Numbered from the stretch's first letter, positions 1 to 29,437 are shown. The stretch is DNA of 32,000 nt from Candidatus Saccharimonadota bacterium (GCA_027925325.1 AP027133.1:300001-332000), one strand, 5' to 3'. A program made the numbers and translations. The notes: generated from the letters alone by a model not told the origin.

Positions 1-1566
1 GGTGTAATTAATAGTTTTTCCTATCCACAAAAGATAGTTCCGCAAAATCAAATAAATTGAAAAGGAAAGATTATTGATTTATCCTTGGGAACAGATTTTA
101 GCGGGGTGATAATTGATACTAATTTAGATAATTATGGTGACACACTTTATATGTGAGGTAACAATAGTAATGGACAATTAGGAAATGGTAATATTGAAAA
201 TTTAAATTATCCTAAAATTATTACCCCACAAAATGAATCTTGAAATGGTAATTTAATTGATCTTGAATTGGGAGAAAAGGATTCAGCGCTTACTATTGAT
301 ACTAATTATGATGGATATGCCGATACCCTTTATATGTGAGGAAGTAATGAATTTTTGCAATTAGGTCAAGAAGATTCCAATTTAAATAATCAAATTTATC
401 CAACAATAACAGAACCAAATAATATAAATGGATTTGATGGTAATATTTTAGATTTATCGACATCAAAATATAGTTCTGGGGTAATTATTGATAATAATTT
501 AGATAATTATGGTGATACATTATATATGTGAGGGACAAATATAAATGGCGTAATTGGCAATAATATCGATTCAAATATAACTCCTACTATTATTTCCTCT
601 TTTCCTGGTAATTTAATTAAATTTGTAACGAAAAATCAAAATTCTGGTGTTACCGTTGATACTGATTTAGATGGATATGCTGATACTCTCTATATGTGAG
701 GAGATAATCAATATGGTGAAGCTGGAACAGGGGATATTGATCAAAATGTTATTTATACTCCGATAGAAATATTACCCTATTTTGGTAGTTGAGAAGGAGA
801 TATTTTAAATTACGCAATCGGTGATACTTATGCAAGTGTTGTAGTAGATAGAAATTATGATCAACATGGTGATACTTTGTATATGTGAGGAAGTAATCAA
901 TATGGTGAAATAGGATTGGCACCTTCTCCTAATGTCATTCTTCCTAACGATGTCTTTAATTTAATTAGTTATTCTATTTCCGAGCTTTTAATAACAAATA
1001 ACAATGATCATGGCTTAAATTTAAGATTATCTTTAAATGATTATTGAGATATTTTCAATATTAACAATCTTCCAGAAGTTACTTTATATGATCAATATAA
1101 TTCAGAATATTCTCTAACTTATTTAGAAGATTTATCAAATCCTGATAGTGACTTATATTATTTTGAAATTAATGATCTTAATTCAGGAACAAAATATATT
1201 TTTGAAAAAATAAAAATCGATCAATTACATTTTCATTTTCCTGAAATTATTGCAATAAGTGATTATTATATTTCTGGGATGGAAGTAAAATCAATTGGAA
1301 CTAATGATGTGGTTTTTGATCTTGATTTAATTTTGGCAGATAATTTAAATATTAGTTATTTTGATTTTAACGAAAGAAAAGTAAGAGTAAATTTTAGTAA
1401 TGATACTTATCAAGAAGCATTAATTAATAATGATCGTAGTGTTAAATTAATTAATTTAACTGCTAATACCAATTATCAAATAACTAGCATTGATTATTTT
1501 TATCAAGATCAACAATATAAATATAACTTGGTAACTGATATGGCTTTTAAAACTTTAGCAGAATAA
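1..1566 (+). CDS. RCC1-repeat (beta-propeller) protein with two C-terminal FN3/Ig-like beta modules; the 5' end runs off the window
   Basis: Frame 1 is open from base 1 to TAA 1564-1566 when the nine in-frame TGA codons are read as Trp. There are five evenly spaced copies (56-64 codons apart) of the RCC1 blade signature ...(G/A)DTLYMWG.N..G(Q/E/V)(L/I/A)G. The Trp in each copy is encoded by TGA (154, 337, 529, 697, 886). The tail from ~950 has two ~95-aa beta-rich modules (...LNSGTKYIFEKIKID; ...LTANTNYQITSIDYF). Confidence 0.8.
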
Positions 1567-1568
1567 AA

Positions 1569-2240
1569 TTAATTATCTTTTGGCCAAACTCATTCTCCAA
1601 ATAATGGGTGCTGAGGGAAAATACCTGATCAGTGGGCAATTTTTTTATTAATATAAAAAGTAAAAATAAAATCACGATGCAAAATTACTTCTTTTTGATT
1701 CAAATCTAATAATTTTGCATCTATTCTAATTTTTTTACTTTTAGCATCAATAATAATGTAATTTATAATAAATTTTACAAAACTTTTATCATATCTTATT
1801 TCAACATTTATTTTACTATTTAATAATCTTTTATTTTTCCAATTAATTTTTATAAGTTCATGTCTTATTGTTTCTTTATGTTCAAGAATTTTTCCATACA
1901 AATCTTCATCAGCTTCAATTCTTAATGGGATATTTATCTTAGTTGTAATTAAATTAGCTCCTCAAAAACTGTTGAGACTATTTTTAATGTATCTTCGTTT
2001 TGTAATTGGAATAATAATAAATGATTGGATGATAATGGCAATAATTACAGAAAAAGTAGCGATTTCTAAATTATTTGTTATATTCTCATTTGATACCGTT
2101 AAAATTTCAGTAATCGATAGAAAACTTAATATTAAAACAGCAATATGAAGTAATGTTGCAAAAAATTCTAATATTTTATATCAATTTGAACCAACAATTA
2201 AAATATCTTGTTTTTCATGTATTTTTTTAATATTAATCAT
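1569..2240 (-). CDS. hypothetical membrane protein (two N-terminal TM helices plus a ~120-aa beta-rich domain; possibly bacterial PH/YdbS-like)
   Basis: ATG 2240 is preceded by AAAGGTGAT. Track fragment 1629..1901 extends on both sides through in-frame TGA codons to TAA 1569-1571, 3 nt from the convergent RCC1 gene stop. The product is 223 aa. The fold guess rests only on the TM + beta pattern. Confidence 0.6.
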
Positions 2241-2263
2241 AATCACCTTTTTAATGTCTTTAA

Positions 2264-3568
2264 TTATATATCAAATATTTTTTTCTCAAATAAAATAATG
2301 ATTCAAATTAATTGTTGATAAATAATAATTTGATAAAAATTAAATGAATTATAATAAAGTAAAATTTTAAAATCCTTAAGTAAAAATAAAAGTGATAAAA
2401 GAGGAATAAATCCATATGTAACTATATCTCAACTAAAAGGAAAAAATATCGAAAAAAATAAGATAAAATAAGTTATTTTTATAATTGGATTTAAAATAAT
2501 GCAGATTAAAGGTGATAATAAATTAATATTTCCTGATCAATTAATTACAAAAGGAAAAGAAATCATAAAAATAAAGATATTGAGAATAACAAATTTATAA
2601 AGATTATTTTTAATTTTTATTTGATGAAAAAATTTATATGCAAAAGAAATTAAAAAAGATAATATTAAACCTGAATTTAAGGCCGAATAAGGATTATAAG
2701 TAAGAAAGAATAATCCAGTAAGAGCAATGGAATTAAAATTTCCTTTTTTAATCTTTTTATTTTGCTTACAAAAATAATCAATTAATGATTTTATTCCTGT
2801 AATGGGAAAGTAAAAAAAATAAAGATAATAGGTAGTTAATAAAAATAAAATTAAATTTTTAATAAGATCCTTCTTAATTATTTTTTTTAATCAAAAATTG
2901 TTTATTTTGATAATTAGAAGAATATGGAATCCAGAAATTATGATTAAAAAACTAATTCCTAAATTTTGAAATAAATTAGCTAGATCTTGATTGTAAATTG
3001 TCTCTTTTTTATATAAAAATAATAATGATAATTGATTATAAATTTGTTTTCTATTTACCAATTTTAAATAAATTAAATTACGAAATGATTGATGGGCATA
3101 TTCTTCTATTTGATAATAATCACTATATCCATAATAAACAGCATGATTTGTTAATAACAAAAAATTAAATGAATTATATTCTTGTTCAATCGGATAATAA
3201 TAGCAATTAAAACTTATTATAGTATGAGGAATTAAATCAGTACAATAATCACTAAAGATAACAAAATAAAAATTTTGTTCTTCTTTTACTAAACAGGATT
3301 TAGAATAACTTTTAATTACTTCCCCTTGATGTTGATAATTTTGATTGGGATTTAAATTACTTAAAAAGTAATTTAAAATAAACAAATGAATAAAAATTAA
3401 AAAGTAAAGCAATATAAAAAAATATCCACCATATTTAAATGTATAGTGGATACCAAAAATAAATGATAAGGATAAGAAAATTATTGTAAATTTTAAAAAA
3501 TATGCATAAAAAAGAATCAATAAATATATCAAAAGATAAAAAAATTTATTTTCATTTTTCCTAAGCAC
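2264..3568 (-). CDS. comEC: ComEC/Rec2-like competence-domain membrane protein (short form, no metallo-beta-lactamase domain)
   Basis: Start is GTG 3568 (no in-frame ATG is available) and stop is TAA 2264-2266, giving 434 aa that are polytopic. ...QNLGISFLIIISGFHILLII... matches the ComEC 'SHLLAISGLH'-type signature. Fragment 2891..3568 continues through TGA codons; I translated the whole 3' half. Confidence 0.65.
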
Positions 3569-3599: not shown

Positions 3600-4880
3600 C
3601 TACTTTTTTTGATGATAATAAATTTTAAAAATTGATCAAGTTAAGATAATTATTGCCGGATTTAAAATAAACATTGATATATAATAAGGATTTGTTTTAT
3701 ATCCATTTGATAGTAAAATAGAAATTCCTTCATTATAAATACCAGGATTGATTCCTACATTACTAATTCGAACATAAATAACAAAACCTTGCTGTTCTAA
3801 TGAAATTGGACCACCGTTTGCTTCAATTTGATTACGAGAGATCGGATAAATAATAAATTTATCGAGAGAATAAAATAAGACTAAATTAATCAAAATTAAA
3901 ATAACAAATAGATAATAAACAAAATTAATTCTTTTATTTATTTTCACTTTATCACTAAGATCTTTATAGAAAACATTATAAACTCAATAAGAAACAGCAA
4001 AAAGAAAGATAAATATTCAAATTGTAAGTAAAAGATAAGAAGGAATATTATTATTTGCTCCTAATCATTTACTTTTCGGAGCGATAGCATCGGTAAAATT
4101 AACACTTAATGGTCCAGGAAGAGCTTCGCTTATTGTATCTTGTAAACCATATATATCAATAAATTTAACATTTGCGGAATTTAATCCGAATGTTCCTAAT
4201 CCTTGTAATCCTTGAAAAGAAAAAGTCATTGAGATAAAAGCTAAAATTAAAGTTGTATTTACGGTATATCGATATTTAATTTCATTTTTAATTTTTAATT
4301 TTTGATAATAAAATAAACTACCAATTAATAAAATAACAATAATACTTATAATTCATAACGATGAAAATAAATTATTAAAGATATCTAGATTATCAACAAT
4401 TAATAGATAATTTAAAGCTACTTTCAAACCTTCATTATCCAATAATTGCAAAAAAGTTGCAGCATCTGCATTTGGGTTTAATTCATTTTTAAATAAAGTA
4501 TTAGCAAAAGTAATTGCTAATAAAACTTGTAATGATAATAAAACAAAAGTTGCAACATAAATTGCGCCATATGTAATAAGAATAGATCTTCTTTTATGAG
4601 GATCATCTGTCTTTCATGTATTTATTAATCACAATAATATCAGTAAAAATAAAATACCAACAAAAACCAAACAAGTGATTGAAAATCATTCAAGATTCGT
4701 GCAAAGAAAGGCTTCGCCAAAATAATGATCGGTATATTTACCCAAAATTAAAAAGTAAAAAATTCCGAATCAAGTCAAGATTAAAATTAAAAATGTACCT
4801 CATTTACTTTTTCAAAAATTTTTAAATTGCTCTCAATTATTATTATTTTTTATATTACTTCTTGTATTTACATTTTCCAT
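3600..4880 (-). CDS. hypothetical polytopic membrane protein (426 aa)
   Basis: ATG 4880 to TAG 3600-3602 has no TAA/TAG in frame and many TGA=Trp codons, which is why only the last 103 aa appear in the track (3636..3947). There are several hydrophobic helices plus a ~100-aa loop. No family was recognised. Confidence 0.6.
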
Positions 4881-4937
4881 AAATTAATTCTCTAGATTTT
4901 TAATTGCTTTAATTTTAAAATAATTTTAATAAAATAA

Positions 4938-6737: not shown

Positions 6738-6806
6738 TAAAGTGAGAAAATTATATTAGTACAAGGGTTTATTTAATGTTGTAAAGAATAATTTCAAGAG
6801 GGAAAG

Positions 6807-8396
6807 ATGAAACTAGCGAAAATTTATATTAAAAGATTTAAAAATATAGAGAATTTGGAGATAAATTTTGAGAAATATAAGAATCTAATAAGTATCATCG
6901 GTTTAAATAATATTGGAAAAACAAATATTTTAGAAGCAATATATTTTTTTGAAACTTTAAAAATAAAAAAGCTTCGGAAAAATGAAGAAAAATTACAAAG
7001 TGTGAGTTTTTATTATAAACTAGATCAAGATGATCAAAATATTTTCTTTGATAATTATCTTGAAGAAACAAGATTAATTGATATAAATAATTATAAAAAA
7101 AATGAAAAGTATTTAAATGAAAAACATGAAAAGCAATTTAATAAAACATATAATAAAAGCAAATCAAATTGAGAAAAATTAAGAATTTTTGAAATTAATG
7201 TAAGTTGAGATAATGAGAAAAAAGAATATATTCGATATTTTCCTGAAGAAATTATTAATTCAAAATATTTTTATAATAAAATTTATCAAGAAAATAAATT
7301 TAAGGTTTTTTATTTTGATAAAACCGTAAAGAAAAATTTTCTCGAAAATCAATTTTTACTTAAAAATAAAATCTTTAAACAAATATTGAAAAATATTGGA
7401 TATGAAGATTTTATTGTTAATTTTTATAATTACAATGATATTGAATTAAATGATTGAATTGAAAAAATAGAAAAATCTCTTGCCGTTTTTCTTTTTGATA
7501 ATTGAAATGATAATTTTAGCATAAAATATAGTGTGAAATTGATATTAATAGATCGAAAAGAAGGAAAATTTTCTTTAATAATTAGTAACAAAAATAATAA
7601 AAAAAATAATTTTCAATTAGAAGAAAGTAGCGATGGATTAACTTCAATTATTCTTATGAAATTATCAATCGGAGAAACCTTTTCTAAAAGATTAATTTTG
7701 ATTGATGAACCGAATACTTTTTTACACTCATCTGCACAAATTAAATTATTAAAGTATTTTAAAAAAATAGTAGCAAAAAATGATTGTAAACTAATTTATA
7801 CGACACATTCTGAGCATCTTGTAGATTCTGATGTTCCTGTAATTTATAAAGGAAAATTAAATTGGGAGATAAAAATAATAAATGATATAAAAGAATATCA
7901 AAATATTCAGCTAAAAGTTTTAGCGAATAATCTATTAATTAATAATCCTATTAATTTAATTTTGAAAAAAGAAAAAGATTTTTATAAATTCATTGAATTC
8001 TATAATAAAAAAGAATATAAAATGTCTCTTACTTATATTCATACGTTATTAGAAAAAGAATTAAATATATTCATCTATAAATTAAATTTAAATGATCAAA
8101 TTAGCAAAAAAAATAATATGTATGATAAATTAAAATTAATTTTAGAAAAAATTGAATTTGATAATTTTAAATTGAATTTACCAGCAGAAAAACAATTAAT
8201 TGAAATTATTAAAAATAACTTTAAAAATACACTCTATCTTTCATCTTTTCGAAATAGTGCAAGTTATGCTCATACCAATAGAATAAAAGATATTGATCTT
8301 GAAAATATCATTCCGATTGTTATTTTTACTTATCTTGCAAATATTGAATTTTTGCGAAGATTTACAGAGATTATAATTGAGAGGAAAGAAGAATAA
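6807..8396 (+). CDS. orphan ABC/OLD-type (AAA_15/21-like) ATPase with a C-terminal helical domain bearing an RNx5H (HEPN-like) motif; candidate PrrC-like abortive-infection/defence nuclease
   Basis: ATG 6807 follows AGAGGGAAAG. Track fragments 6807..7172 and 7533..8396 share a frame and are joined by a stretch with four TGA and no TAA/TAG, giving 529 aa. Motifs seen are Walker A IIGLNNIGKTNILEAI, signature-like SSDGLTSIIL, Walker B/D-loop RLILIDEPNTFLH, and H-loop LIYTTHSEHL. The C-terminal ~190 aa contain FRNSASYAHTN (8250-8273). Confidence 0.75.
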
Positions 8397-10692: not shown

Positions 10693-11421
10693 TTATTTAT
10701 CAAAGCAGTTTAAATTTTTAATTCTTTTATGTTCGCTGTTTTTATGACAAGCTATAATTTTGGAACTTATTTTCTTATCTAAATTAGGATCATTTTGTCA
10801 ATATCTTTCAAGATCTTCATATTTAAATCCTAATTCCTTTTCATCTGTCTGTCCACATCAAAGATCAGCACTTGGTTTTTGTTTAAGTATTTTTGTAGGA
10901 AGTTTTAGCAATAAACCTAATTGATAGATTTCTGATTTTTTAAATTTTGCAATTGGATAAATATCTGCAGCTCCATCTCCTCATTTTGTAAAATAACCCA
11001 AATACATTTCAGAATAATTTGATGTTCCGATAACAAGATAGTCTTTCATATTTGCATAAGCATATAAAGCATTCATTCTTAATCTTGCTTTGATATTACC
11101 TTCAATTAATAAGTTATTATTACCGGAAATATTTAAATCTTTTAAAAAGGCATTAAAACTATTTTCAAGATTTATTAATTGATGATTAATTTTAAATTTA
11201 TCAACTATCAACTTAAAATTATTATGTGCTTCATCTGAAGAATTAATATTTAAAAAAATACCTTCTGTATTTTTTGGAAAAGCAATCTTTGCTAATACAG
11301 CACAAACTGCACTATCTATTCCCCCTGAAATAGCGATGCAAACTCCTTTTGCATTAGCTTTTTTTACTTCTTCTCTAATTCAATTTACAATTTCTTTAAT
11401 TTTTGTTTCTTTTATTTTCAT
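10693..11421 (-). CDS. nadE: NH3-dependent NAD+ synthetase
   Basis: The gene runs from ATG 11421 to TAA 10693-10695 (242 aa). It has the PP-loop CIAISGGIDSAVCA and ...[25 protein letters not shown]... Track fragment 10981..11211 is extended both ways. Confidence 0.85.
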
Positions 11422-12154
11422 TATTAGTATTCTCGATAATTTTTTCTGTTTTTCGATTAGGATCAATTTTTAATTTATCTTCTTTTACTTTACTTTTTGT
11501 TTTCTCGTTTTGAATATTTTTATGATTAACTTCTCTTTTTATTGCTTTTTCTTTTTCTTCTTGCTTTAAAATTTTGATAATTTTTTTAAATTCATCATTT
11601 TCTATCTTTAAAGTTTTCTGTTTTGCTCTTAATTTTTTTAAAATACTTGTCGATCTTATGTATTTATTTTCAATTTTTAATTTATCTTCTTTTAAAAGGA
11701 TAAATTCTTCTTCTAATTTTTTACTTTTTTTGCAATTTGCTTCAATTTTTTTTGTTTTTTCTTTTAATTGCAATAGTTCTTCTTCTTGTAAATTTATTTT
11801 TTCTGCTTGTTTGTGTATTTTTTCTTTTGCTTTATTTATTTTTGTTTGCAAGAAAGATGATTCTAATAATTTTTGCTTATCAATAAAATTATTTTCTAAA
11901 AAATAAAAATAAATTAAACTAATAGCTTCTGTGATGTATTCTTTTATTTCTTGTTCATCTGCTAATAAATTTTCTAAATTTTCGATTTTTAGAAATTGAT
12001 GAATAAAACTTTCTACTCCATAAACAATAATTTTAAGATTGTGTTCTGGATTATTTTTAAAATTATTATTATTTGAGATAACTTTTAATAATTTTTTTAT
12101 TTTTTGAAGATGATACATTAAATCTTTATTATTTAATTTATCGTTTTTAACCAT
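11396..12154 (-). CDS. hypothetical K/E-rich coiled-coil protein
   Basis: ATG 12154 is preceded by AAGGAA; the track uses an upstream TTG at 12199. A ~110-aa helical N-domain is followed by a long heptad-like K/E region. The 3' end overlaps the nadE start by 26 nt. Confidence 0.5.
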   Translation of the reverse strand: MVKNDKLNNKDLMYHLQKIKKLLKVISNNNNFKNNPEHNLKIIVYGVESFIHQFLKIENLENLLADEQEIKEYITEAISLIYFYFLENNFIDKQKLLESSFLQTKINKAKEKIHKQAEKINLQEEELLQLKEKTKKIEANCKKSKKLEEEFILLKEDKLKIENKYIRSTSILKKLRAKQKTLKIENDEFKKIIKILKQEEKEKAIKREVNHKNIQNEKTKSKVKEDKLKIDPNRKTEKIIENTNNENKRNKN

Positions 12155-12221
12155 AATAATACTATTCCTTAGAAATTTATATAATAAAGATTTAGACAAT
12201 TAAATTGCCTAAATCTCTGTC

Positions 12222-18882: not shown

Positions 18883-19554
18883 TTAATTATTATCCTTTAT
18901 CAAATCAAAAATCTGCTTTGCTTTTTTATTTATATTAATTTTACTATCAATATTATTTAAAATTACATAATCTGCTTGTTTGCGATTTTTTTCAATATAT
19001 TTTTTAAACATTGGATATATCTGTTTTTCTCAACGATTAATAAAATTTTCACAATTAAATGAATGATTATGATGATGATAATTATAATCTCTTTTATATC
19101 TTCTAATTAAACGTAAATCACCGTCAGCTTCAATATAAATCTTCTTAAAGGCATTATTTAGTAATTTTTGATTGAAAAAGGCAAATATTCCTTCAATAAT
19201 AATATATTCTGCTGGTTTAACTTTAAATGTTTTGCTAAGATCATAGTTACATGTTTTAAAGTTATAAATTTTTCGTTCAACAATCAAACCAGAAAAAACT
19301 TTATTTAGATCATCATTAAAATCTTTCCAATTAATTGTATTTGGATCATCAAAATTAACTTTTGTAAGATCATTAATTTTGAAAATATTTTTTATCTCTT
19401 TCTCATCATAATAATAATTATCGATACTAAAAAAAGAAGCATCAATTTTGTTTTTTTGAAAAATTTCAGAAAGATCTTTTGAGATCGCACTTTTGCCCGA
19501 TGCTGTCCCACCTGATATTAAAATAATTTTACTTTTTTGTTTCATTTTCAACAT
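18883..19554 (-). CDS. udk: uridine kinase
   Basis: It has the P-loop ILISGGTASGKSAI and ...IIIEGIFAF...IYIEADGDLRLIRRYKRD... Fragment 19030..19554 reads through TGA to TAA 18883-18885. An alternative ATG lies at 19545. Confidence 0.85.
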
Positions 19555-19924
19555 TTTGCAATTCTTCTAATAATAATTTAATAAGTTGATCTTTTGGTAA
19601 CGTTTGATCATAATCAATTTGTAAATCTATTAATGCTTTTTTTAAATCATCCAAAGCCATTAGATTAAAATAATCAAAATAATCATTCTCACTTTTAAAA
19701 TCATCAATTTGTAAATTTTTCTCTGTATTTATAATACTATTTTTATTTTGTTCTTGATTATTTTTTTCAATTTGGATTGAATCATTTTTATTTTGTGTAT
19801 TTTGTCTTTTTATACTATATTTTTTTTTAACTAAATATAATCTAATATTTACAATCACCAATACTAAAATAGCTAAAATAGAAACTATTATTAATGATAA
19901 AACAAGTGCATCCGCTGTATCCAT
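19529..19924 (-). CDS. small N-terminally membrane-anchored protein with a C-terminal helix-extended-helix (Rho_N/SAP-like) motif
   Basis: This is a contiguous 131-aa ORF. It has a TM segment ALVLSLIIVSILAILVLVIVNI, an N/Q-rich linker, then ...LDDLKKALIDLQIDYDQTLPKDQLIKLLLEEL. Confidence 0.6.
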   Translation of the reverse strand: MDTADALVLSLIIVSILAILVLVIVNIRLYLVKKKYSIKRQNTQNKNDSIQIEKNNQEQNKNSIINTEKNLQIDDFKSENDYFDYFNLMALDDLKKALIDLQIDYDQTLPKDQLIKLLLEELQNVENETKK

Positions 19925-19932
19925 CTTAATAA

Positions 19933-20343
19933 TTAAACTTTCCCTAAATAATCAGTTAACATAAGACAGGCCGCAAAAAGATCTTTATTTGCCTTAAAAT
20001 CAACTTTATTTTCTTTAATATATTCTCCTGCTCGTTTAGTTGTAAATCTTTCATCAAAGAGAATAATTTTTATTTTATTGTTTTTTTTCTGGAAAATTTC
20101 AAGAAAATTATCAACATTAATTGTTGCCTGACTTTTTTTATTATCTGTTCTTTTTGGATAACCGATAATAATCGTATCAATATCATCATGTTTTTGCAAA
20201 AGATTTAAAATAATTTTTGTTGCTTCTAAAAAATCAAATCTTTTAAAAAAATAATTTTCAATCGGAATCGCAATAATATTATTTTTATCACTTATACAAA
20301 CCCCAAGACTTTTTTCTCCAAGATCAATTGCTAATTTTCTCAT
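19933..20343 (-). CDS. ruvX: YqgF/RuvX putative pre-16S rRNA nuclease (Holliday junction resolvase-like)
   Basis: It has MRKLAIDLGEKSLGVCISD...IIIGYPKRTDNKKSQ...DERFTTKRA... The ATG lies 1 nt after the alaS TAG. Confidence 0.85.
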   Translation of the reverse strand: MRKLAIDLGEKSLGVCISDKNNIIAIPIENYFFKRFDFLEATKIILNLLQKHDDIDTIIIGYPKRTDNKKSQATINVDNFLEIFQKKNNKIKIILFDERFTTKRAGEYIKENKVDFKANKDLFAACLMLTDYLGKV

Positions 20344-20344
20344 C

Positions 20345-23038
20345 CTATTTTTTTTCCTTTAAGAATTTAATAATTGTATTTTCAACCATTTTTAAGTTAT
20401 CTATTTTCCCACCGAAAACATATAAATAATTCTTACCGCCACCTTTTAAATTAAATTCATTTAATTTATTTTCTAATTCGATAATTCTGTTTTTAAATTT
20501 ACTTTTTTGTCCTAATACAATAAATAAAGTATATTTTTGTTGATCAAATAAAGCAAGTAAAAGAGTTTTTTCTTCCTTATCTAATAATGCTTTAAAAGCA
20601 ATTTTTGTTAAATTTTTTAAATTTAATTTTTTTAAATTAAGATAAATAATATCTTCTTTTGTTGCTAATATTTCTTTTAATTTTAATTCTAATTGTTGTG
20701 TCTTTATTTTTAAAGTTCAATCAATTAAAACTTGACTTTTATCTATCAAATTATTGAGATCTTGATTAAAATTTTGCTGATCAAATTTTAATTTATTTAA
20801 ATTTGTTTGTATTTTCTTTAAATCAGAAATTTTATCTGCCGTTAAAATTTTTTGATCATTTAAAAATATATCATCTAAATTTTTAATTATAGGATCAGCA
20901 ATTTTAAATCAAATTTCTTCATTTTCTTTTACAAAATATGATTTAATATTATTTTTACCTGTAATCGCTTGTAAACGATAAATACCTGAACCTTTTTTCT
21001 CTAATTTTGCAATTTTTATCGCTTCAATTTCTTTGATATTTGTGACATGAGTTCCACCGCAAAGATCGATTGTCTCATCTGTTAATTTTACAATTCGAAC
21101 AGATTCTTTATAATTTTTTCCTTCAAGATAACCAGGATTTAATTTTAAAGCCTCTTTTAATTTTAAAATTTTAATCTCTGATTGAAAACCTTTTTTAATT
21201 CAATTATTTGCTAAATTTTCAGCAGCATCTAATTCGTTTTTAGTAATCTCTTTTTGATAAGAAAAATCAAATCTTAAAAAAGATGGAGCCACTTTTGAAC
21301 CGACTTGTTTTAAATCTTGCTTTAAAATAATTTCAAGCGCTTTAAAAAGCAAATGAGTTGCAGAATGATTATTTGTTAATTTTTTTCTTCTATCAAGATC
21401 AATTTTTAATTCAACGTGTTGTCCGATTTTAAATGGATTTTCTTCTAGTAAATGAATAATTAAGTCATTTTCTGTTTTAAAAACAGTAAGAACATTGACA
21501 TTATCAATTGTTCCTAGATCTGATTCTTGTCCTCCTGAAGTTGGATAAAAAATGGTCTTATCACAAACAAGATAATTATCCAAAATGGCAATAACTTTCG
21601 CTTTAAAAGGATTTTTATAATCATTGTATCCTAAAAACAATGTCTCTTTTAATTTTGGAAATAATTTTTTTTGTATTTCCATTCCTTTAATAAAATTAGC
21701 ATTTTGCTTTGATTTTAATTTAAATTGATTATTTAATTCTAATAATTTTTGATAATCAATCTCAATTTGATATTTACTAGTTAATTTTTTTATATAACTT
21801 AAATTTAATGGCAATCCATAAGTTTCATGTAATTTAAAAATTTGCTCTGTATTTAACCTATTTTCTTTTTTATATTTTAAAAACATCGCTAATGCTTGTT
21901 TATATGTTTTATTAAATTTTTCACCCTCTTCAATTACTAAATTTAAAATTTTATTTTGATTTAAAATTAGATATGGATATCTTTCTTTTTCATTTTCACA
22001 GATAATTGCGATAATTTTTCGCAAAAAAGTAAAGCTAATTTCTAATTGCTCCGCAGTAATTATCGCTTCTCTTAATAATCTTCGAATTACATATCCTCTT
22101 CCTGTTGCACTAAAATTAGCTTGATCAGCCAACATAAAAGTAATTGCACGTGTAAAGTCTGCTATTTTTTTAAATTCACTATTTACTTCCGCTTGTTTTT
22201 TATTTTCTTGTCAAAGTTTTGTTGGATGATAATCTCAAAGATAATTATAAGAAGAAAATTTTTCTAATTCTTTAATGATTGGTTTAAAAATGTCTGTCTC
22301 AAAAGTAGTGGGAGTATCTTCAAAAATCATCGTTAATCTTTCAAGTCCTGCTCCCGTATCGATATTTTTTTGTGGTAATTCTTGATAATTACCTTTACCA
22401 TCATTACTAAATTCTGAAAAAACAATATTTCAAATCTCTATAAAACGATCATTTTCGATATCATCTTTAATCAATATTGATGCATCTCTTTTATCATATT
22501 CTTTTCCGCGATCATAAAATATTTCAGTAGAAGGTCCACACGGTCCTTTGCCGATATCTCAAAAATTTGTTTCTCTTCCCATTTTAAAAAGATGATTTTT
22601 TGCTATTCCTTTTTTAATTCAAAAATCATATGCATTTTGATCATCATTAAAAACAGTAATATAAATCTTTTCTTTTGTAAATGCAAAGTATTCCTTTGCA
22701 AATAATAATTCATAAGCATAATCAATCGCTTCTTTTTTAAAATAATCGCCGATTGAAAAATTGCCAAGCATTTCAAAAAGGGTTTGATGACGAGCAGTTA
22801 TTCCGATCTTATCAATGTCGCCCGTTCTAATTGATCTTTGATAATTTACAAGTTTTTTGCTTGGTGGTTTTTTTTCTGCACTAAAATAATTTTTTAAAGT
22901 TGCAACACCAGAATTTATTCATAATAATGAATTATCATTTTTAGGGATTAATGAAGAAGAAGAAATTAGTAGATGATTTTTTTTAGTAAAAAAATCAATT
23001 CATAGCTTTCTGATCTGAATTGAATTTAATTTTTTCAT
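20345..23038 (-). CDS. alaS: alanine--tRNA ligase
   Basis: The gene runs from ATG 23038 to TAG 20345-20347 (897 aa), and every codon was checked for TAA/TAG. Motifs seen are ...[16 protein letters not shown]..., ...[19 protein letters not shown]..., ...[21 protein letters not shown]..., ...[14 protein letters not shown]... and ...HSATHLL... Only 21200..22135 appears in the track. Confidence 0.95.
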
Positions 23039-23110: not shown

Positions 23111-24148
23111 TTATTTATTTTTTGTTTTTCTTGAAATATAAATTCCTAATAAACCAAATAAAATTAAATAAATATAAGGAACAAAAATATAAGCCGATCA
23201 TAACCAACAACTAAAAGAAAACATTTTATATCTAAATAATACTCATGTGCTAGGATCATTTGGATTTATGATTAATTTATCATTATTAGATGGATCAATT
23301 CCAGGAAGATAAAGTGATGTGGTTCGATAAAAATTAACAAATACATCATATTGACTTCATTGAATGATTCAATAATATGGATTTAACATATGAATAAATT
23401 GAAAAATATTAAAATCATAAAAAAAGGTCTTATCAACTCTTGCATTACGATCAAAATAAGGTTTAAAAGTTAAAACCTGACTTTCTGAATCATAAGAATA
23501 ATAATAAATAGCATCAGCTGAATCTGAATATGGTTTTGAAAAAACAGCACGAAAGACAAAAGTAGCAGAAAAAAGCAAAATTATCACAAATACAAAAAGA
23601 ATAACGATAAAATAATTCCTTAAATTTTTACTAAAGGATTGAATTAAAAAAGCAATTACAAAAGATTCAAAAAAGATAATTAAAACATAATAAATTAAAA
23701 TTCCTCATCGAAGTTGATTAAAATCTTTAATTTGATAATAAATTATATTTTTATTTTGCAAATCTCAAAAAGCGACAATATTTAATGCGTGAAATATATA
23801 AAGATATGTAAGAGCGATAAAAAAAGAAAAAAAAGCAAATAAAAGTAAATTTATAAAAATAGGAAAATAAATTTGAAATTTGTTGGTAGTTTTTTGTTTT
23901 ATTAAAAAATAAAAATGAGATCTTCTAATATTAAAAAATATCAAGCCATAAAATAAAAAAGTATTAAAAATAATTGAATAAGCGATCGTACTATCAATTG
24001 ATAAAACAGTCGGCGTTTGCAGAAAAAAAGCAAGATCAAAAAATAAAGGAGTAAAGAATAAAGTTATATAAAATCAGAGAGATTTTATACTTTTTTTAAA
24101 ATAAAAATTTATCAAATAAAAAGTCTTAAAATTGTATCTATTCCCCAT
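23111..24148 (-). CDS. tandem-array 6-TM membrane protein, copy A (345 aa; divergent subtype)
   Basis: ATG 24148 (alternative 24160) to TAA 23111-23113, with the frame checked. It contains track fragment 23369..23587. It has the shared blocks ...YYYSYDSESQVLTFKPYFDRN..., MLNPYYW, DPSTWV and FSFSCWLW. Confidence 0.75.
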
Positions 24149-24173
24149 TTTTCAACTCATTTACTAAAATATT

Positions 24174-25223
24174 TTAATCATTATATTTTTTTTTCTTTTT
24201 TACAATCAAAGCCCCTAAAAAACTATAAGTAAAGATAAAAATATATGGAACAAAAATATAGGATGCTCATAATCAATTTGTAAATGAGAACATTACATAA
24301 TCATATTTTACTCATGTACTAGGGTCATTTTGATCTATTACAATTTCATTAAGTCCCGGAAGTGTAAGTGATGTTGTTCGATAACTATCGATAAAAATAT
24401 CATATTGCCCTCATACCGTAATATAGTAAAAAGGATTAAACATTTGTATAAATTTATGAATAGAAAAATCATTGAAAAAGTATTGATTTTCTGTCTTTGG
24501 AGCACTTGGATCAAAATAAGGTTTAAAAGTTAAAATTTGCGTTTCTGGATTATAACTATATAAAAGATCATTTGAATGATTAGAATAAGGAGTAATAAAA
24601 ATTGTAAAAAGCAAGGTTCCTGAAAAAGTTACTATCAAGACAAAAATAAAAACGGTAATTAAAATATAAAAACTAAGATTTCTACTTAAAGTTTGAATTA
24701 AAAATGCTAACGAAATCGAAATAATAAAAATGACAATTATATAATAAATTAATAATCCTCAGCGATAATCAGAAATTTTAGATAATTGATAATGATATTC
24801 AGCATTATTTCAATTTTGAACGGCGATTCAATTAATTTTATCAAATAAAAAAATAAAAAATAATGAAAAAACAAATGTAAGAAAAGTGATAATGATTAAA
24901 TTAAAAAATATTGGTAGATGCGAAATAAATCTATGATTATTAAATTTTTGTTTAATTAAAAGATAAAAATGTGATTTACGAAAATTAAAAAATAATACAC
25001 CATAAAAAATAATAATATTAAAAATTAAAGCAAATACAATCGTACTATCAACAGTTAAAAATGCTGGCAATTGTGTTAGCAAAAATAGACAAAAAAAGAA
25101 AGGAATTAAAATTATTCCAAGATAAAATCAATATGATGTTACTAATTTTTTAAAGTAAAATCTCGTTAATTCAAATAAATATCGGTTTTCAAAAAAACCT
25201 ACATTCTTATTTCTTATTCGCAT
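24174..25223 (-). CDS. tandem-array 6-TM membrane protein, copy B (349 aa)
   Basis: ATG 25223 to TAA 24174-24176, with the frame checked. It joins fragments 24411..24638 and 24828..25082 through TGA codons. Confidence 0.8.
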
Positions 25224-25249
25224 TTATTTTAAAACCTTATAATATGATA

Positions 25250-26290
25250 TTATCTTTTTTTCTTTTTTTTCGCAATAAAAATTGCTAAAAAAGTATAAAA
25301 GATAATAAAAAGATAAGGGGCAAAAATATAAGATGCTCATAATCAATTTGTAAATGAAAACATTACATAATCGTATAATACCCATGTGCTAGGATCGTTT
25401 TGATCTATTACGATTTCAGGAAGACCCGGAAGTGAAAGTGATTTTGTTGCATAACTCTCAGTAAAAATATCATATTGCCCTCATTCTGTAATATAGTAAA
25501 AAGGATTAAACATTTTCATAAATGTAAAAAAAGAGAAATTGTTCAGAAAACGTAAATTAGGATTATTACTAGGATCTAAATAAGGTTTAAAAGTTAAAAC
25601 TTGTGTTTCTGGATTATAACTATATAAAAGATCCTCTGAATTATTAGAGCGAGGAGAAACAAAAGTTGAAAAATCAAACGCCGTTCCCGAAAAAAGCATA
25701 ATCAAAATGAAAATAAAAATCATTAATAAAAAATAAAAATTAAGATTTTTACTTAATATTTGAATCAAAAAAGCTACCGAAATAGAAACTATAAAAATGA
25801 TAGAAATATAATAAATTAATAATCCTCAGCGATAATCAGAAATTTTAGATAATTGATAATAATGTCCTTCAGTATGAGTTCAATCTCTAGCTGCAATTCA
25901 ATTAAGTTGATCAAATAAAAAAATAAAAAATAATGAAAAAGAAAAAGTAATAAATGCAATGATAACCAAATTAAAAAAAATTGGAAGATGAATCATAAAT
26001 TTATGATTATCAAATTTTTGTTCAATTGAAAAATAAAAGTGTGATTTACGAAAATTAAAAAATAAGACACCATAAAAAATAATAGTATTAAAAATTAAAG
26101 CAAAACCGATTGTACTACCAACAGTTAAAAATGCTGGTAATTGTGTTAGTAAAAATAAACAGAAAAAAAGAGGAATTAAAATTATTCCAAGATAAAATCA
26201 ATATGATGTTACTAGTTTTTTAAAATAAAAAAATGTTAATTCAAGCAAATATTGATTTCCAAAAAAACTTAAATTCTTATTTCTTTTCAC
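25250..26290 (-). CDS. tandem-array 6-TM membrane protein, copy C (346 aa; GTG start)
   Basis: GTG 26290 to TAA 25250-25252, with the frame checked. It contains fragment 25481..25768. The ATG homologous to the B/D starts (26292) is out of frame. Confidence 0.7.
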
Positions 26291-26317
26291 ATTTATTTCA
26301 AGCCTTATAATATGATA

Positions 26318-27364
26318 TTATCTTTTTTTCTTTTTCTTAGCAATAAAAATCGCTAAAAAAGTGTAGGAGAAAATAAAAAGATAGGGAACAAAAATATAAG
26401 ATGCTCATAATCAATTTGTAAATGAGAACATCACATAATCATATAATACTCATGTGCTAGGGTCGTTTTGATCTATTATGATTTCATCAATCCCTGGAAG
26501 AGAAAGTGATGTTATCCGATAACTATCGATAAAAATATCATATTGCCCTCATACTGTAATATAGTAAAAGGGATTAAACATTTGCATAAATTTAAAAAAA
26601 GAAAAATCATAAAAAAACCTTCAAGTAGGAAAAAAGGTTGTATTAGGGTCAAAATAAGGTTTAAAAGTTAAAACATGTGTTTCTGGATTATAACTATATA
26701 AAAGATCATTTGAATTATTAGAATTAGGGAAAGTAAAAATTGTAAAGTTAAGTAAGGTTCCCGAAAACATCATGATTAAAATGAAAATACAAACCGCTAA
26801 TAAAATATAAGAATTTAGCTTTTTACTTAAAACTTGAATTAAAAAAGCTAACGAAATAGAAATTATAAAAATGATAGAAATATAATAAATTAATAATCCT
26901 CAACGATAATCAGAAATCTTAGCAATTTGATAATAATTATCAGGATTACTTCAATTCTGAACCGCAATTCAATTAAGTTGATCAAATAAAAAGATAAAAA
27001 ATAACGAAAAAAGAAATGTAAGAAAAGCAATGATAACTAAATTAAAAAAAATTGGCAGATGTGCCATAAATTTATTATTATCAAATTTTTGTTCAATTGA
27101 AAAATAAAAATGTGATTTCCGAAAATTAAAAAATAAAATTCCATAAAAAATAAAAACATTAAAAATTAAAGCAAATCCAATTGTACTATCAACAGTTAAA
27201 AAAGCTGGCAATTGTGTTAGTAAAAATAAACAAAAAAAGAAAGGAACTAAAATTATTCCAAGGTAAAATTGATACGACGTAATAATTTTTTTAAAATAAA
27301 ATAACATTAATTCAAAACAAATATTGATTTGAAAAAAATTCCCATTTTTATTTTTTATTTGCAT
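26318..27364 (-). CDS. tandem-array 6-TM membrane protein, copy D (348 aa)
   Basis: ATG 27364 to TAA 26318-26320, with the frame checked. It extends fragment 26969..27364 through TGA codons. Confidence 0.8.
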
Positions 27365-27390
27365 TTATCTTAAAACCTTATAATATGATA

Positions 27391-28434
27391 TTATCTTTTT
27401 TTCTTTTTTTTCGCAATAAAAATCCCTAAGAAACCATAAAAGAAAATGAAAATATAAGGAACAAAAATATAAGATGATCATAATCAATTTGTAAACGAAA
27501 ACATCACATAGCTATATCTTACTCATGTACTAGGATCACTTTCATTTATTATAATTGGATCAATTCCGGGAAGAGAAAGTGATGTTGTTCGATAAAAATC
27601 AATAAAAATATCAAATTGTCCTCATGCCGAGATGTAATAATAAGGATTAAACATCTCAATGAAACGACCGAAGGTAAAATCTTGAAAAAATCTTTTATTA
27701 AAAAAATCAGGGTCGTTTCGATCAAAATATGGTTTAAAGGTTAAAATTTGTTCATTTTGATCATAATTATATAATAATTCATTACTATTATCTTTATATC
27801 TTGGTGTATCAAATGCCGATGTTATTCCAAATGTCCCAGAAAAAAGAATTATGATTATTATTACAAATAGTGAAAATAAAAGAAATGAATTAAAATTATT
27901 ACTTAAATTTTGCAATAAAAAAGCCAATGTAAAAGTAATCATAAAAATAATAAGCAAATAATAAATTAGTAACCCTCAGCGAAAATCAGCAATATCTTTA
28001 ATTTGATAAAAATAATTTTCACTATAATTTCATGTTTCCAAAAATAATCAATCACTATTTACAAAAATATAAAAAAATAAAATTGCAAAAAAAGTTGTAA
28101 AAATAACAACAATTAATAAATTAAGAAAAATTGGAAAATAAATAAATATCTTCTTATAATTAAATTTTTGATTTATCAAAAGATAAAAATGCGATTTATG
28201 AAAAGAGAAAAATAAAATTCCATAAAACAATAAAATATTAAAAATTAGCGAAAAGGAAATCACACTATCAACGACCAAAAATGTCGGTGTCTGTGTAAGA
28301 AAGGCGAGACTAAATAAAAAAGGAACGATAATTATTAAAAAATAAAATCAAACCGAAAAGATCATTTTCCTGAAAAAAAACAAGAAAAGTCCTACAAAGT
28401 TATGATATAAATCTACATTCTTTTGTTCTTTCAT
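27391..28434 (-). CDS. tandem-array 6-TM membrane protein, copy E (347 aa; divergent subtype)
   Basis: ATG 28434 to TAA 27391-27393, with the frame checked. It joins fragments 27622..27957 and 28048..28278. It starts 19 nt after the nrdF stop. Confidence 0.8.
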
Positions 28435-28453: not shown

Positions 28454-29437
28454 TTAAAAATCTTCAAAATCTTCATCATTTAATTCTTCATGGACAATCG
28501 GTTTAATATATCCATTCCCTTTTGTTGAAAAAAAATCATGTGTTTTAGTTTCTGTATCTAATCCATTTAAAATGATCGGATTTATATCTTTATCATTGAT
28601 ATTAAAATAAGGATCAAAACCAAAATTCATTAAAGCTTTATCAGCATTATATTTAATAAATTTTACCACATCATCAGTAAGATTAACTTTATCATAAAGT
28701 TCTTTTGTATAATTAATTTCATTTTGATAAAGATCTAACATTAAATCATAAACTTTTTTACTTAACTCTGCTTTTTTTTCGATTGTAAATTTTTTAAAAA
28801 TATTTTGCGCAATTAAGCCCACAAAAGTTCCATGAACCGATTCATCTCTAATAATAAGATTGATAATTTCTCCTGATCCGACTAACTTTCCCTGTCCTGA
28901 AAATCATAATGGATAAAAAAAGCCAGAATAAAATAAAAATGTCTCTAAAAGAACCGAAGTTGTAAGTGCAAGATAAAGATCTTCTTCGTTATTTATCTTT
29001 CGATAATAAGAATCAACTTTTTTTACCTTGTATTGCAAATATTTATTATCTTGAACTCAATCAAAAAGCTCATTAATTCTCTCTGAATTTGAAAGAGTTG
29101 AGAAAATTGTAGAATAAGATTTTGCATGCATCTGCTCCATTGCTGCCATAAAAGCAAAGACCGCCTTTACATGCAGATCATCAATTTTATCAAGGATAAG
29201 TGGCATCCCCACTCCTCCTTGTTCAGTATCAAGTAAAGTAAGACCGGCAAGAATTTTTTCATAAGTATCTTTTTGCTCTTGATTTAATTTATCTCAATGC
29301 TTTCGATCCTCAACTAATGAAATCTCTTCATCAACTCAAAATTGTCTAATATTTTGATCTCAAAACAATTTAACATAATTATTTTCAATTTTATTTCAAT
29401 TTATCGCTTTGATAATTTGTTCTTTTTTATTAAGCAT
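28454..29437 (-). CDS. nrdF: class Ib ribonucleotide reductase beta subunit
   Basis: ATG 29437 follows GAGGAG and overlaps the nrdE stop as ATGCTTAA. The product is 327 aa. Metal ligands are ...[11 protein letters not shown]... and ...[10 protein letters not shown]..., with an acidic C-terminus ...[11 protein letters not shown]. Fragment 28454..28822 was extended. Confidence 0.9.

What the first reader, a model, noticed from the sequence alone, without database searches (positions are those of the whole stretch)
23111..28434. Five-gene tandem array of uncharacterised 6-TM membrane proteins between nrdIEF and alaS
Under code 4 the seven short track fragments between 23.1 and 28.4 kb fuse into five intact, same-strand CDSs of 345-349 aa with a ~1.07-kb period. 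I checked all five frames codon by codon and found no TAA/TAG. Every copy has the same plan. It begins with a basic N-terminus (..FYFKK..) and three TM helices, then a ~28-aa loop ending (D/Q)(Y/F/L)RWG. Two more TM helices follow, then a ~105-aa aromatic-rich loop with invariant blocks (LTFKPY(F/L)D; NP(F/Y)YY; QYD(I/V)F; DPSTWV; FSF(T/S)(N/C)WLW). It ends with a last TM helix and a poly-Lys tail. The inner copies B, C and D are close to each other even at DNA level. The outer copies A and E form a second, more divergent subtype (shared FDRN.., FYRTTSL.LPGIDP). The 6-TM plan and an 'NPxYY' box after a large outside loop recall ABC-2-type permeases, yet no transport ATPase, lipoprotein or transposase gene is nearby. 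I cannot place the family from memory. A five-fold amplified accessory membrane family dropped between core operons in a minimal genome is the best candidate here for an undescribed system, perhaps surface variation, immunity/exclusion or receptor masking.
Basis: partly seen in the sequence, partly recalled or inferred. Interest (0 to 1): 0.8.

Follow-up and report, generated by a model that had tools for sequence, protein, structure and literature searches.

The report
Five tandem ABC-2-like permease genes
Five neighbouring genes in the very small genome of a woodlouse gut symbiont encode highly diverged copies of a common membrane-transporter subunit (an ABC-2-type permease) whose ATP-driven motor is encoded elsewhere, so the array is real and unannotated but is not a new kind of system.

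Summary
Under code 4 the minus strand of 23111-28434 carries five intact paralogous genes of 346-349 aa between nrdIEF and alaS. The window is Candidatus Hepatoplasma scabrum. The same junction holds 4, 3 and at least 2 copies in three other Hepatoplasma assemblies, so the array is not an assembly artefact.

The proteins match no Pfam, NCBIfam or PADLOC model. Four results still place them as very divergent ABC-2 (type V ABC exporter) membrane domains:
- An exhaustive profile search found about 49 distant relative clusters.
- A confident AlphaFold model (pLDDT 87) matches only type V ABC membrane domains in the PDB.
- Pfam ABC2_membrane is the only family that relatives hit repeatedly, always below threshold.
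- In five loci (four lineages, Hepatoplasma included) relatives directly abut a fused double-NBD ABC ATPase.

H. scabrum has that ABC locus elsewhere in its genome. All copies are under purifying selection (dN/dS 0.24-0.49), and the outside loops are not hypervariable. No phase-variation or defence signature was found.

Most likely the five genes are extra permease subunits energised in trans. The substrate is unknown. This is a new, lineage-restricted member of a known kind, of modest interest.

The parts
27391..28434 (-). c1, 347 aa. First copy, directly after nrdF (19-nt gap). Orthologous to the first copy in other Hepatoplasma genomes. NCBI HPPSJP_2810 is annotated too short (262 aa).
   Evidence: Intact table-4 ORF with ATG start and 8 TGA codons. 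Groups with Av_1 and Ps_1 in the NJ tree. A1/A2 profile hit at 2e-160 and 3e-108.
26318..27364 (-). c2, 348 aa. One of three close paralogs (c2-c4). NCBI HPPSJP_2800 is annotated as 329 aa.
   Evidence: It is 77% and 76% identical to c3 and c4.
25250..26290 (-). c3, 346 aa, GTG start (NCBI HPPSJP_2790). The open frame continues upstream to 26317.
   Evidence: The NCBI protein P0002 begins MKRNKN at this GTG.
24174..25223 (-). c4, 349 aa (NCBI HPPSJP_2780, P0003). This is the copy that was modelled.
   Evidence: AlphaFold model with pLDDT 87.1 and pTM 0.87. Foldseek hits are all type V ABC membrane domains.
23111..24160 (-). c5, 349 aa. Last and most divergent copy, 42 nt upstream of alaS.
   Evidence: It is 46-50% identical to the others. 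It groups with P0010 and shares NPYYW and FSF(S/K)C motifs with Av_2-4.
25224..25249 (-). 26-nt spacer upstream of c4 (TATCATATTATAAGGTTTTAAAATAA). It is part of the duplicated unit and carries an AAGG possible ribosome-binding site.
   Evidence: Nearly identical spacers lie upstream of c2, c3 and c4.
26291..26317 (-). 27-nt spacer upstream of c3 (TATCATATTATAAGGCTTGAAATAAAT).
27365..27390 (-). 26-nt spacer upstream of c2 (TATCATATTATAAGGTTTTAAGATAA).
28454..29437 (-). Flank, for context: nrdF, last gene of nrdIEF, immediately upstream of c1.
   Evidence: Pfam Ribonuc_red_sm at 1.5e-83. Same order in L001 and L004.
20345..23038 (-). Flank, for context: alaS, immediately downstream of c5.
   Evidence: Pfam tRNA-synt_2c at 1.5e-144. 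Same order in L001, L004 and L012.

Best explanation
The five genes encode very divergent ABC-2-type (type V ABC exporter) membrane domains. They form a lineage-specific tandem expansion inside the genus Hepatoplasma.

**Shown.**
- Each protein is N-in and C-in. It has an N-terminal amphipathic helix (FYFKK), six TM helices and a short cytoplasmic helix after TM2 (FFNFRKSHFY).
- A net-acidic outside domain of about 115 aa lies between TM5 and TM6. About 23% of its residues are aromatic, no more than in the whole protein. It contains the NP(F/Y)Y helix.
- The family's other members are encoded in tight operons with a fused double-NBD ABC ATPase. Hepatoplasma has such a locus with four more paralogs.

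**Inferred.**
- The array copies are extra or alternative permease subunits. They dock through the conserved TM2-TM3 loop onto that ATPase, which is encoded elsewhere, and so form ATP-driven exporters or floppases.
- The paralogs differ mainly in patches of the outside loops, so they probably handle different but related ligands.

**Speculative.** By analogy with other type V transporters, and given a wall-less bacterium living in a digestive gland, the ligands would be hydrophobic or amphipathic molecules such as lipids or sterols, host surfactants or antimicrobial peptides.
For: - **Remote homology.** The Hepatoplasma-only profile finds 49 clusters at E<=1e-3 among 1.84 billion proteins, many aligned over the full length.
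- **Fold.** AlphaFold with 29 sequences gives pLDDT 87.1 and pTM 0.87. The 50 listed of 73 Foldseek PDB hits are all type V ABC membrane domains: ABCH-9C, ABCG5/8, ABCG2, ABCG1, ABCG25, TarG, NosY, KpsM, PmtCD, Pdr5. TM-score normalised to the target is 0.50-0.54 for the permease-only chains (5njg, TarG, NosY, KpsM).
- **Pfam.** ABC2_membrane is the only family hit by more than one distant member (2 of 29 and 3 of 27, best E 1.3e-4). ABC2_membrane_3 is hit by three more. One ATPase-linked paralog hits it at 2.8e-4 over profile positions 11-211 of 211.
- **Link to ATPase-linked paralogs.** hhalign of the array profile against them gives probability 96.7%, E 4.4e-10. The array-only HMM also finds them at 1e-17 to 1.6e-5.
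- **Gene context.** Members directly abut (8-nt overlap up to a 96-nt gap) a 705-836 aa protein with two ABC_tran domains in L005, L007/L008, L009, L011 and L013.
- **Co-occurrence.** Array and ABC locus occur together in strain Av (X271_00310-312 and X271_00425), in strain Ps (L004 and L011 on one contig), and in H. scabrum (this window plus HPPSJP_3840). UniProt already calls X271_00425 'ABC-2 family transporter protein'.
- **Conserved cytoplasmic loop.** The block at the end of TM2, YGxxFFNxRxSxxY, is among the best conserved of the whole superfamily and is kept in all five copies.
- **Selection.** dN/dS is 0.24-0.49 for all paralog and ortholog pairs.
Against: - The five proteins themselves match no Pfam or NCBIfam model, even at E<=1.
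- Profiles find no PDB sequence at E<=10.
- No Foldseek hit is better than E=0.036, and TM-score normalised to the query is only 0.40-0.46.
- No ABC ATPase gene lies in the 32-kb window, so coupling in trans is an inference.
- The Hepatoplasma ABC locus already has four membrane-domain genes for one double NBD, so it is unclear why more would be needed.
- The ATPase could not be assigned to a subfamily. DrrA and PQQ-ABC models score best, all far below cut-off.
- I could not read the H. scabrum ATPase gene.
- Expression is untested and the substrate is a guess.
Confidence: 0.6

Rival explanations
1. The copies keep the ABC-2 fold but work without an ATPase. They could be surface receptors, scaffolds or immunity-type membrane proteins that use the large outside loop to bind a host or microbial ligand.
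For: - No NBD gene is within 32 kb.
- Solitary family members without an adjacent ATPase exist in other lineages (L006 and L010).
- The outside domain is large and has several invariant blocks.
- From general knowledge: ABC-2-like membrane domains without an ATPase are known, for example the YhgE/Pip phage infection proteins.
Against: - The best-conserved cytoplasmic element is the TM2-TM3 loop. In type V transporters (general knowledge) this loop forms the helix that contacts the NBD. It is shared with the ATPase-linked paralogs.
- Every genome with the array also has the ATPase locus.
- No defence model matches.
Confidence: 0.25
2. The array is a variable surface-antigen family used for phase or antigenic variation, as in many Mycoplasma multigene families.
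For: Tandem same-strand paralogs in a mollicute. Copy number differs between species: 5, 4, 3 and at least 2. Several patches of the outside loops differ between copies.
Against: - Outside loops are as conserved as the TM helices (56% against 57% mean identity). dN/dS is 0.34-0.48 for the outside loops and 0.27-0.61 in the most variable patches.
- All copies are intact with their own start codons.
- No long homopolymer or short-repeat switch lies in the spacers. There are no strong inverted repeats and no recombinase gene nearby.
- The proteins are polytopic membrane proteins, not lipoproteins.
Confidence: 0.04
3. The ABC-2 resemblance is spurious: a generic 6-TM helical bundle plus low-complexity hydrophobic sequence. 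On this view the family is an unrelated membrane protein of unknown fold, and its adjacency to the double-NBD protein (possibly an ABC-F-like soluble factor next to engB) is incidental.
For: - All sequence links to ABC2_membrane are below threshold.
- Foldseek E-values are 0.036 or worse.
- The ATPase has a long K/E-rich linker and also matches ABC-F models and ABC-F structures.
Against: - All 50 listed Foldseek hits belong to one transporter class, with no other 6-TM families among them.
- The same Pfam clan recurs independently in eight different relatives.
- The ATPase-member gene order, with overlaps or gaps under 20 nt in most loci, is kept in four lineages whose members are only about 30% identical.
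- DrrA-type models outscore ABC-F (200.9 against 161.8 bits).
Confidence: 0.1
4. The array is an assembly artefact or a set of decaying pseudogenes.
For: The sequence comes from a metagenome-assembled genome. The public annotation truncates two copies.
Against: - Copies differ by 16-36% in DNA and the longest shared identical run is 55 nt.
- Three other assemblies have arrays at the same junction.
- All five frames are intact and dN/dS is well below 1.
Confidence: 0.01

Closest known systems
ABC-2 / type V ABC exporter membrane domains (Pfam ABC2_membrane PF01061; bacterial TarG, Wzm, KpsM, NosY, PmtD; eukaryotic ABCG and ABCH membrane domains)
   Same: - Six TM helices, N-in and C-in, with an N-terminal amphipathic helix.
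- A short cytoplasmic helix between TM2 and TM3.
- Helices in the TM5-TM6 outside loop.
- These are the only fold matches in the PDB.
- Relatives give sub-threshold PF01061 hits, and relatives are encoded next to an ABC ATPase.
   Different: - The five proteins have no significant sequence match to any Pfam, NCBIfam or PDB entry.
- The TM5-TM6 loop is expanded to about 115 aa and has its own invariant blocks (LTFKPY, DPSTWV, MFSF).
- The genes are not linked to an NBD gene and occur as 3-5 tandem copies.
ATPase-linked paralogs of the same family in Hepatoplasma and related mollicutes (for example X271_00425, HPPSJP_3840, P0020, P0018, P0021, P0022)
   Same: Homologous by HMM (1e-17 to 1.6e-5) and by hhalign (96.7%). 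Same TM plan, and the same conserved block at the end of TM2.
   Different: - Only about 20-25% identical.
- Encoded in an operon of double-NBD ATPase, 3-4 members and engB.
- The outside domains differ in length and sequence.
Multi-permease ABC-2 systems such as lantibiotic immunity LanFEG and the S. aureus PmtABCD exporter (general knowledge; PmtCD is a fold hit)
   Same: They use two or more paralogous ABC-2 permeases with an ATPase. They expel amphipathic peptides from the membrane. This is a plausible functional analogue for a wall-less symbiont.
   Different: In those systems the permease and ATPase genes lie in one operon and the permeases are about 250 aa without a large outside domain. 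No bacteriocin or peptide gene is seen near the array.
ECF transporter S-components that share one energising module (general knowledge; an analogy only)
   Same: Several small membrane subunits encoded away from the ATPase genes could take turns on one ATPase module.
   Different: The fold and transport direction are unrelated, and there is no sequence or structural similarity. Sharing of the ATPase is not shown here.
Mycoplasma variable surface multigene families (Vsa, Vsp, Vlp and similar; general knowledge)
   Same: Tandem paralogs in a mollicute, with copy number differing between lineages.
   Different: Those are lipoproteins with repeats and with phase-switch tracts or recombinases. The proteins here are polytopic and under purifying selection, and no switch elements were found.

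Membership tests
ABC-2 / type V ABC transporter membrane domain | Sequence match to a curated ABC-2 membrane model (PF01061, PF12698 and relatives) at the gathering threshold | tested here: not met
   The array proteins have no Pfam or NCBIfam hit even at E<=1. Only distant relatives hit ABC2_membrane or ABC2_membrane_3, all below threshold (best 1.3e-4, 20.9 bits against a cut-off of 26.9).
ABC-2 / type V ABC transporter membrane domain | Six TM helices, N-in and C-in, preceded by an amphipathic interface helix | tested here: met
   AlphaFold model (pLDDT 87): H8-29, then TM helices 31-51, 54-83, 98-129, 155-179, 183-199 and 317-348. K/R residues cluster in the N-terminus, the TM2-TM3 loop and the C-tail, and the large loop is net acidic.
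ABC-2 / type V ABC transporter membrane domain | Three-dimensional similarity to solved type V membrane domains | tested here: inconclusive
   All 50 listed Foldseek hits are type V ABC membrane domains. TM-score per target is 0.50-0.54 for TarG, NosY, KpsM and the ABCG2 membrane domain. But the best E is 0.036 and TM-score per query is 0.40-0.46.
ABC-2 / type V ABC transporter membrane domain | Short helices in the outside loop between TM5 and TM6 | tested here: met
   The model has helices 245-251, 255-261 and 264-277 (NPFYYITVWGQYDIF) between TM5 and TM6. The proline of this box is invariant across 29 family members. Whether they re-enter the membrane could not be checked.
ABC-2 / type V ABC transporter membrane domain | Gene linked to an ABC ATPase (NBD) gene | tested here: not met
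   For the array itself there is no ABC_tran protein in the 32-kb window. For the wider family the feature is met: members abut a double-NBD ATPase in L005, L007/L008, L009, L011 and L013.
ABC-2 / type V ABC transporter membrane domain | Physical coupling to NBDs and ATP-dependent transport | not testable with these tools
   The only indirect support is the conserved block at the end of TM2, shared with the ATPase-linked paralogs.
Mycoplasma-type variable surface protein family | Hypervariable exposed regions, plus a switch mechanism (short-repeat tract, invertible promoter or recombinase) | tested here: not met
   dN/dS in the outside loops is 0.27-0.61. No switch-like repeats or strong inverted repeats. 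No recombinase gene in the window.
Known anti-phage defence or immunity proteins (PADLOC) | Match to a defence-system protein model | tested here: not met
   c1, c2 and c5 have no PADLOC hit at E<=0.01.

The most novel reading that the evidence does not exclude
One fused double-NBD ATPase serves a pool of up to nine interchangeable ABC-2-type membrane subunits: four in its own operon and three to five in the nrdF-alaS array. That would be a shared-motor, swappable-permease design, known for ECF importers but not for type V ABC exporters. It would let a 0.6-Mb symbiont genome cover several substrates in the host digestive gland with a single ATPase.
Probability: 0.2. Interest if true: 0.6.

Novelty: new member of a known kind. 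Interest (0 to 1): 0.3.

Why it matters
- **Annotation.** It gives a fold and a likely role to five 'hypothetical' genes, and to 7-9 such genes per Hepatoplasma genome. That is on the order of 1% of the genes of a roughly 0.6-Mb genome. It also defines a family that current domain libraries miss.
- **Biology of the symbiont.** Keeping and repeatedly re-expanding this family in a reduced genome suggests that transport of some membrane-active or lipid-like compound matters for life in the isopod hepatopancreas.
- **Transporter design.** If the copies share one ATPase, that would be an unusual modular arrangement for type V ABC transporters.

None of this is a new kind of system.

Tried and rejected
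- **Library scans of the array proteins.** Pfam, NCBIfam and PADLOC found nothing except one weak T6SS_Burk_ExIF hit (E 0.017, 14.8 bits against a cut-off of 90), which I dismissed.
- **First AlphaFold run.** Nine Hepatoplasma sequences gave pLDDT 47, which is unusable. It was replaced by the 29-sequence run.
- **Word-indexed profile searches.** They added almost nothing beyond Hepatoplasma because of the candidate cap.
- **PDB sequence searches.** Profiles A2 and A6 gave no hits at E<=10.
- **Viral structure library.** Nothing.
- **Species-representative genomes.** The broad alignment had no usable conserved stretch. The narrower one found only H. crinochetorum Ps. The family looks restricted, but the sensitivity of this scan is low.
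- **H. scabrum ABC locus.** The look-up by HPPSJP_3840 failed: not on record.
- **ATPase subfamily.** Not resolved.
- **Promoter and terminator scan.** Uninformative in 23% GC DNA: 100 promoter-like sites found against 97.6 expected.
- **Gene conversion among c2-c4.** No long identical tracts.
- **Diversifying selection in the outside loops.** Not seen with pairwise Nei-Gojobori estimates.
- **Rejected ideas.** Phase-variation switch, foreign origin (native GC, conserved synteny), and c1 plus c5 as one subtype.

Full report
**What is in the sequence.** The window has 23.4% GC and only reads sensibly under genetic code 4. On the minus strand of 23111-28434 there are five intact ORFs:
- c1 27391-28434, 347 aa
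- c2 26318-27364, 348 aa
- c3 25250-26290, 346 aa, GTG start
- c4 24174-25223, 349 aa
- c5 23111-24160, 349 aa

Each has 7-8 in-frame TGA codons and a TAA stop. Under table 11 the region falls into 25 fragments. The gaps between genes are 13-42 nt. The 26-27-nt spacers before c2, c3 and c4 are nearly identical, so the duplicated unit includes the spacer. The flanks are nrdI, nrdE, nrdF and alaS by Pfam. All run in the same direction: nrdIEF, then c1 to c5, then alaS. c2-c4 are 74-77% identical in protein. c1 and c5 are each about 46-56% identical to everything else. The idea that c1 and c5 form one subtype fails on identity and on the tree.

**Whose genome, and is the array real.** The best database hits are the 'hypothetical proteins' HPPSJP_2780-2810 of Candidatus Hepatoplasma scabrum, followed by H. 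crinochetorum proteins. The same nrdF-[array]-alaS junction holds:
- four copies in H. crinochetorum Av (L001)
- three copies in strain Ps (L004)
- at least two copies in a further Hepatoplasma-like contig, L012, where the C-terminus of a second copy is visible at the contig edge

Copies in this window differ by 16-36% in DNA and share no identical run longer than 55 nt. GC content is native. An assembly artefact or a recent foreign insertion is therefore excluded.

A neighbour-joining tree shows one orthologous 'head' copy (c1, Av_1, Ps_1). The other copies cluster by species (c2-c4; Ps_2-3; Av_2-4), and c5 groups with P0010. Copies have therefore been gained and lost repeatedly.

**What the proteins are.** Pfam, NCBIfam and PADLOC give nothing for the five proteins. 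Four lines of evidence still place them:
- **Distant relatives.** An exhaustive HMM search with a Hepatoplasma-only profile found 49 clusters at E<=1e-3 among 1.84 billion representatives, many aligned end to end. None has a Pfam domain above threshold.
- **Structure.** With 29 of these sequences AlphaFold gave a confident model of c4, pLDDT 87.1 and pTM 0.87.
  - Its elements are an amphipathic helix at 8-29, TM1-TM3, a beta-hairpin loop, TM4-TM5, an outside domain at 200-316 with strands and three helices (one is the NPFYY helix), and TM6.
  - The charge distribution puts both termini and the TM2-TM3 loop inside and the net-acidic large loop outside.
- **Fold search.** Foldseek against the PDB returned 73 hits. 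All 50 listed are type V (ABC-2) ABC transporter membrane domains: ABCH-9C, ABCG5/8, ABCG2, ABCG1, ABCG25, TarG, NosY, KpsM, PmtCD, Pdr5 and Cdr1.
  - E-values are weak, 0.036 at best.
  - TM-scores normalised to the permease-only targets reach 0.50-0.54.
- **Pfam at relaxed thresholds.** ABC2_membrane is the only family that several distant members hit (2 of 29 and 3 of 27). ABC2_membrane_3 is hit by three more.

**Gene context of the relatives.** This is the strongest clue. In L005, L009 and L013 a 705-772 aa protein with two ABC_tran domains is followed by three family members and then an EngB-like GTPase. The junction between the ATPase gene and the next gene is an 8-nt overlap or an 8-nt gap. 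In Hepatoplasma (L007/L008, and L011 from strain Ps) the order is member, member, 836-837 aa double ATPase, member, member, GTPase.

All of these neighbours are family members by the broad A2 profile. Most are also found by the array-only HMM, at 1e-17 to 1.6e-5. hhalign of the array profile against the 'downstream' paralogs gives 96.7% probability, E 4.4e-10. One of those paralogs hits ABC2_membrane at 2.8e-4 over the whole model. UniProt already names X271_00425 'ABC-2 family transporter protein'. H. scabrum itself has such a paralog, HPPSJP_3840, elsewhere on the same 606-kb contig. The array and the ABC locus therefore co-occur in all three genomes that could be checked. The array proteins are closest to the P0020/P0018/P0021/P0022 type of ATPase-linked member, which is the likely source of the expansion.

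**How it most likely works.**
- **Shown:** the proteins are ABC-2-like membrane domains, and their relatives are operon partners of an ABC ATPase.
- **Inferred: trans-coupling.** The five copies are extra permease subunits driven in trans by that ATPase.
  - The main argument is the block at the end of TM2 leading into the cytoplasmic loop, YGxxFFNxRxSxxY. It is among the best-conserved segments of the whole superfamily and is intact in all five copies.
  - In type V transporters (general knowledge) this loop forms the helix that contacts the NBD.
- **Selection.** All copies are under purifying selection, dN/dS 0.24-0.49.
- **Where the copies differ.** Differences between c2-c4 concentrate in the N-terminal tail and in patches of the two outside loops. 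Even there dN/dS is 0.27-0.61, and the invariant outside blocks are very tightly conserved. This fits related but distinct ligand specificities better than immune evasion.
- **Speculative: the substrate.** Type V transporters typically move lipids, sterols, glycolipids or amphipathic peptides out of or across the membrane. A wall-less bacterium in a digestive gland could use them to expel surfactants or antimicrobial peptides, or to handle lipids.

**Rivals.**
- **ATPase-independent role.** This remains possible at about 0.25. Nothing shows physical coupling, solitary members occur elsewhere, and the Hepatoplasma ABC operon already has four membrane-domain genes.
- **Antigenic or phase variation.** Unlikely: conserved loops, no switch tracts, inverted repeats or recombinase.
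- **Defence.** No support.
- **Spurious ABC-2 resemblance.**
  - For it: every individual sequence link is below threshold, and the ATPase has an ABC-F-like K/E-rich linker.
  - Against it: the fold hits all come from one transporter class, the same Pfam clan recurs, and the operon order is conserved.

**Comparison and novelty.** The family fails the formal sequence test for PF01061. It meets the topology and loop-helix features. It is inconclusive on fold statistics. The linkage criterion is met only through its relatives. I file it as a new, lineage-restricted and highly diverged member of the ABC-2 permease kind.

Neither Hepatoplasma genome paper mentions the array. Their 'tandem clusters' are different, giant repeat ORFs.

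Three things are unusual:
- The family lies beyond current domain models.
- The TM5-TM6 outside domain is about 115 aa.
- A 0.6-Mb genome keeps 7-9 paralogs, with 3-5 of them as an ATPase-less array that has re-expanded independently in each species.

The most novel reading still open is a shared-ATPase, swappable-permease system. It is untested.

**Verdict.** Interest is modest at 0.3.

Noticed in passing
window 6792-8396 (+): A roughly 530-aa AAA_15/AAA_21 ATPase. Its best PADLOC match is AriA (PARIS) at 7.9e-22, and it also resembles OLD, GajA and PtuA ATPases. It may be a solitary defence gene in a very small genome. It is not a transport ATPase.
   Followed up: partly
window 1-1566 (+), runs off the window start: A protein with RCC1 repeats (a eukaryote-like repeat). 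RCC1-repeat genes also lie near the solitary family member P0023 in L006 (1976-5490).
   Followed up: no
window 27391-28434 and 26318-27364 (-): The public annotation starts c1 (HPPSJP_2810, 262 aa) and c2 (HPPSJP_2800, 329 aa) too far downstream. The full ORFs with ATG starts, 347 and 348 aa, align with the orthologues from the first residues.
   Followed up: yes
window 26288-26317 (-): c3 has no in-frame ATG near its start and uses GTG. An ATG lies one base out of frame just upstream, which suggests a 1-nt indel relative to c2 and c4. Ps_2 in L004 also starts with GTG.
   Followed up: partly
L005 3285-9649; L009 3674-9765; L013 3539-9771; L007 6879-15223; L011 5792-14054: A conserved mollicute ABC locus. 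It has a fused double-NBD ATPase (705-837 aa) with a long K/E-rich linker between the NBDs, 3-4 paralogous ABC-2-like membrane genes, and then an EngB-like GTPase. No characterised homologue was found, and the subunit stoichiometry is unclear.
   Followed up: partly
L012 2-157 and 328-1410: A further Hepatoplasma-like lineage (Logan ERR14656831) has at least two tandem copies directly upstream of alaS. The contig ends inside the upstream copy.
   Followed up: partly
window 3600-4883 (-), 1569-2339 (-), 11396-12199 (-), 19529-19984 (-): Four more ORFs with no Pfam match, including a 426-aa polytopic membrane protein at 3600-4883. None is related to the array family by HMM.
   Followed up: no
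window 1-32000: No tRNA gene, and no Rfam family at the gathering threshold, anywhere in the 32-kb window.
   Followed up: yes
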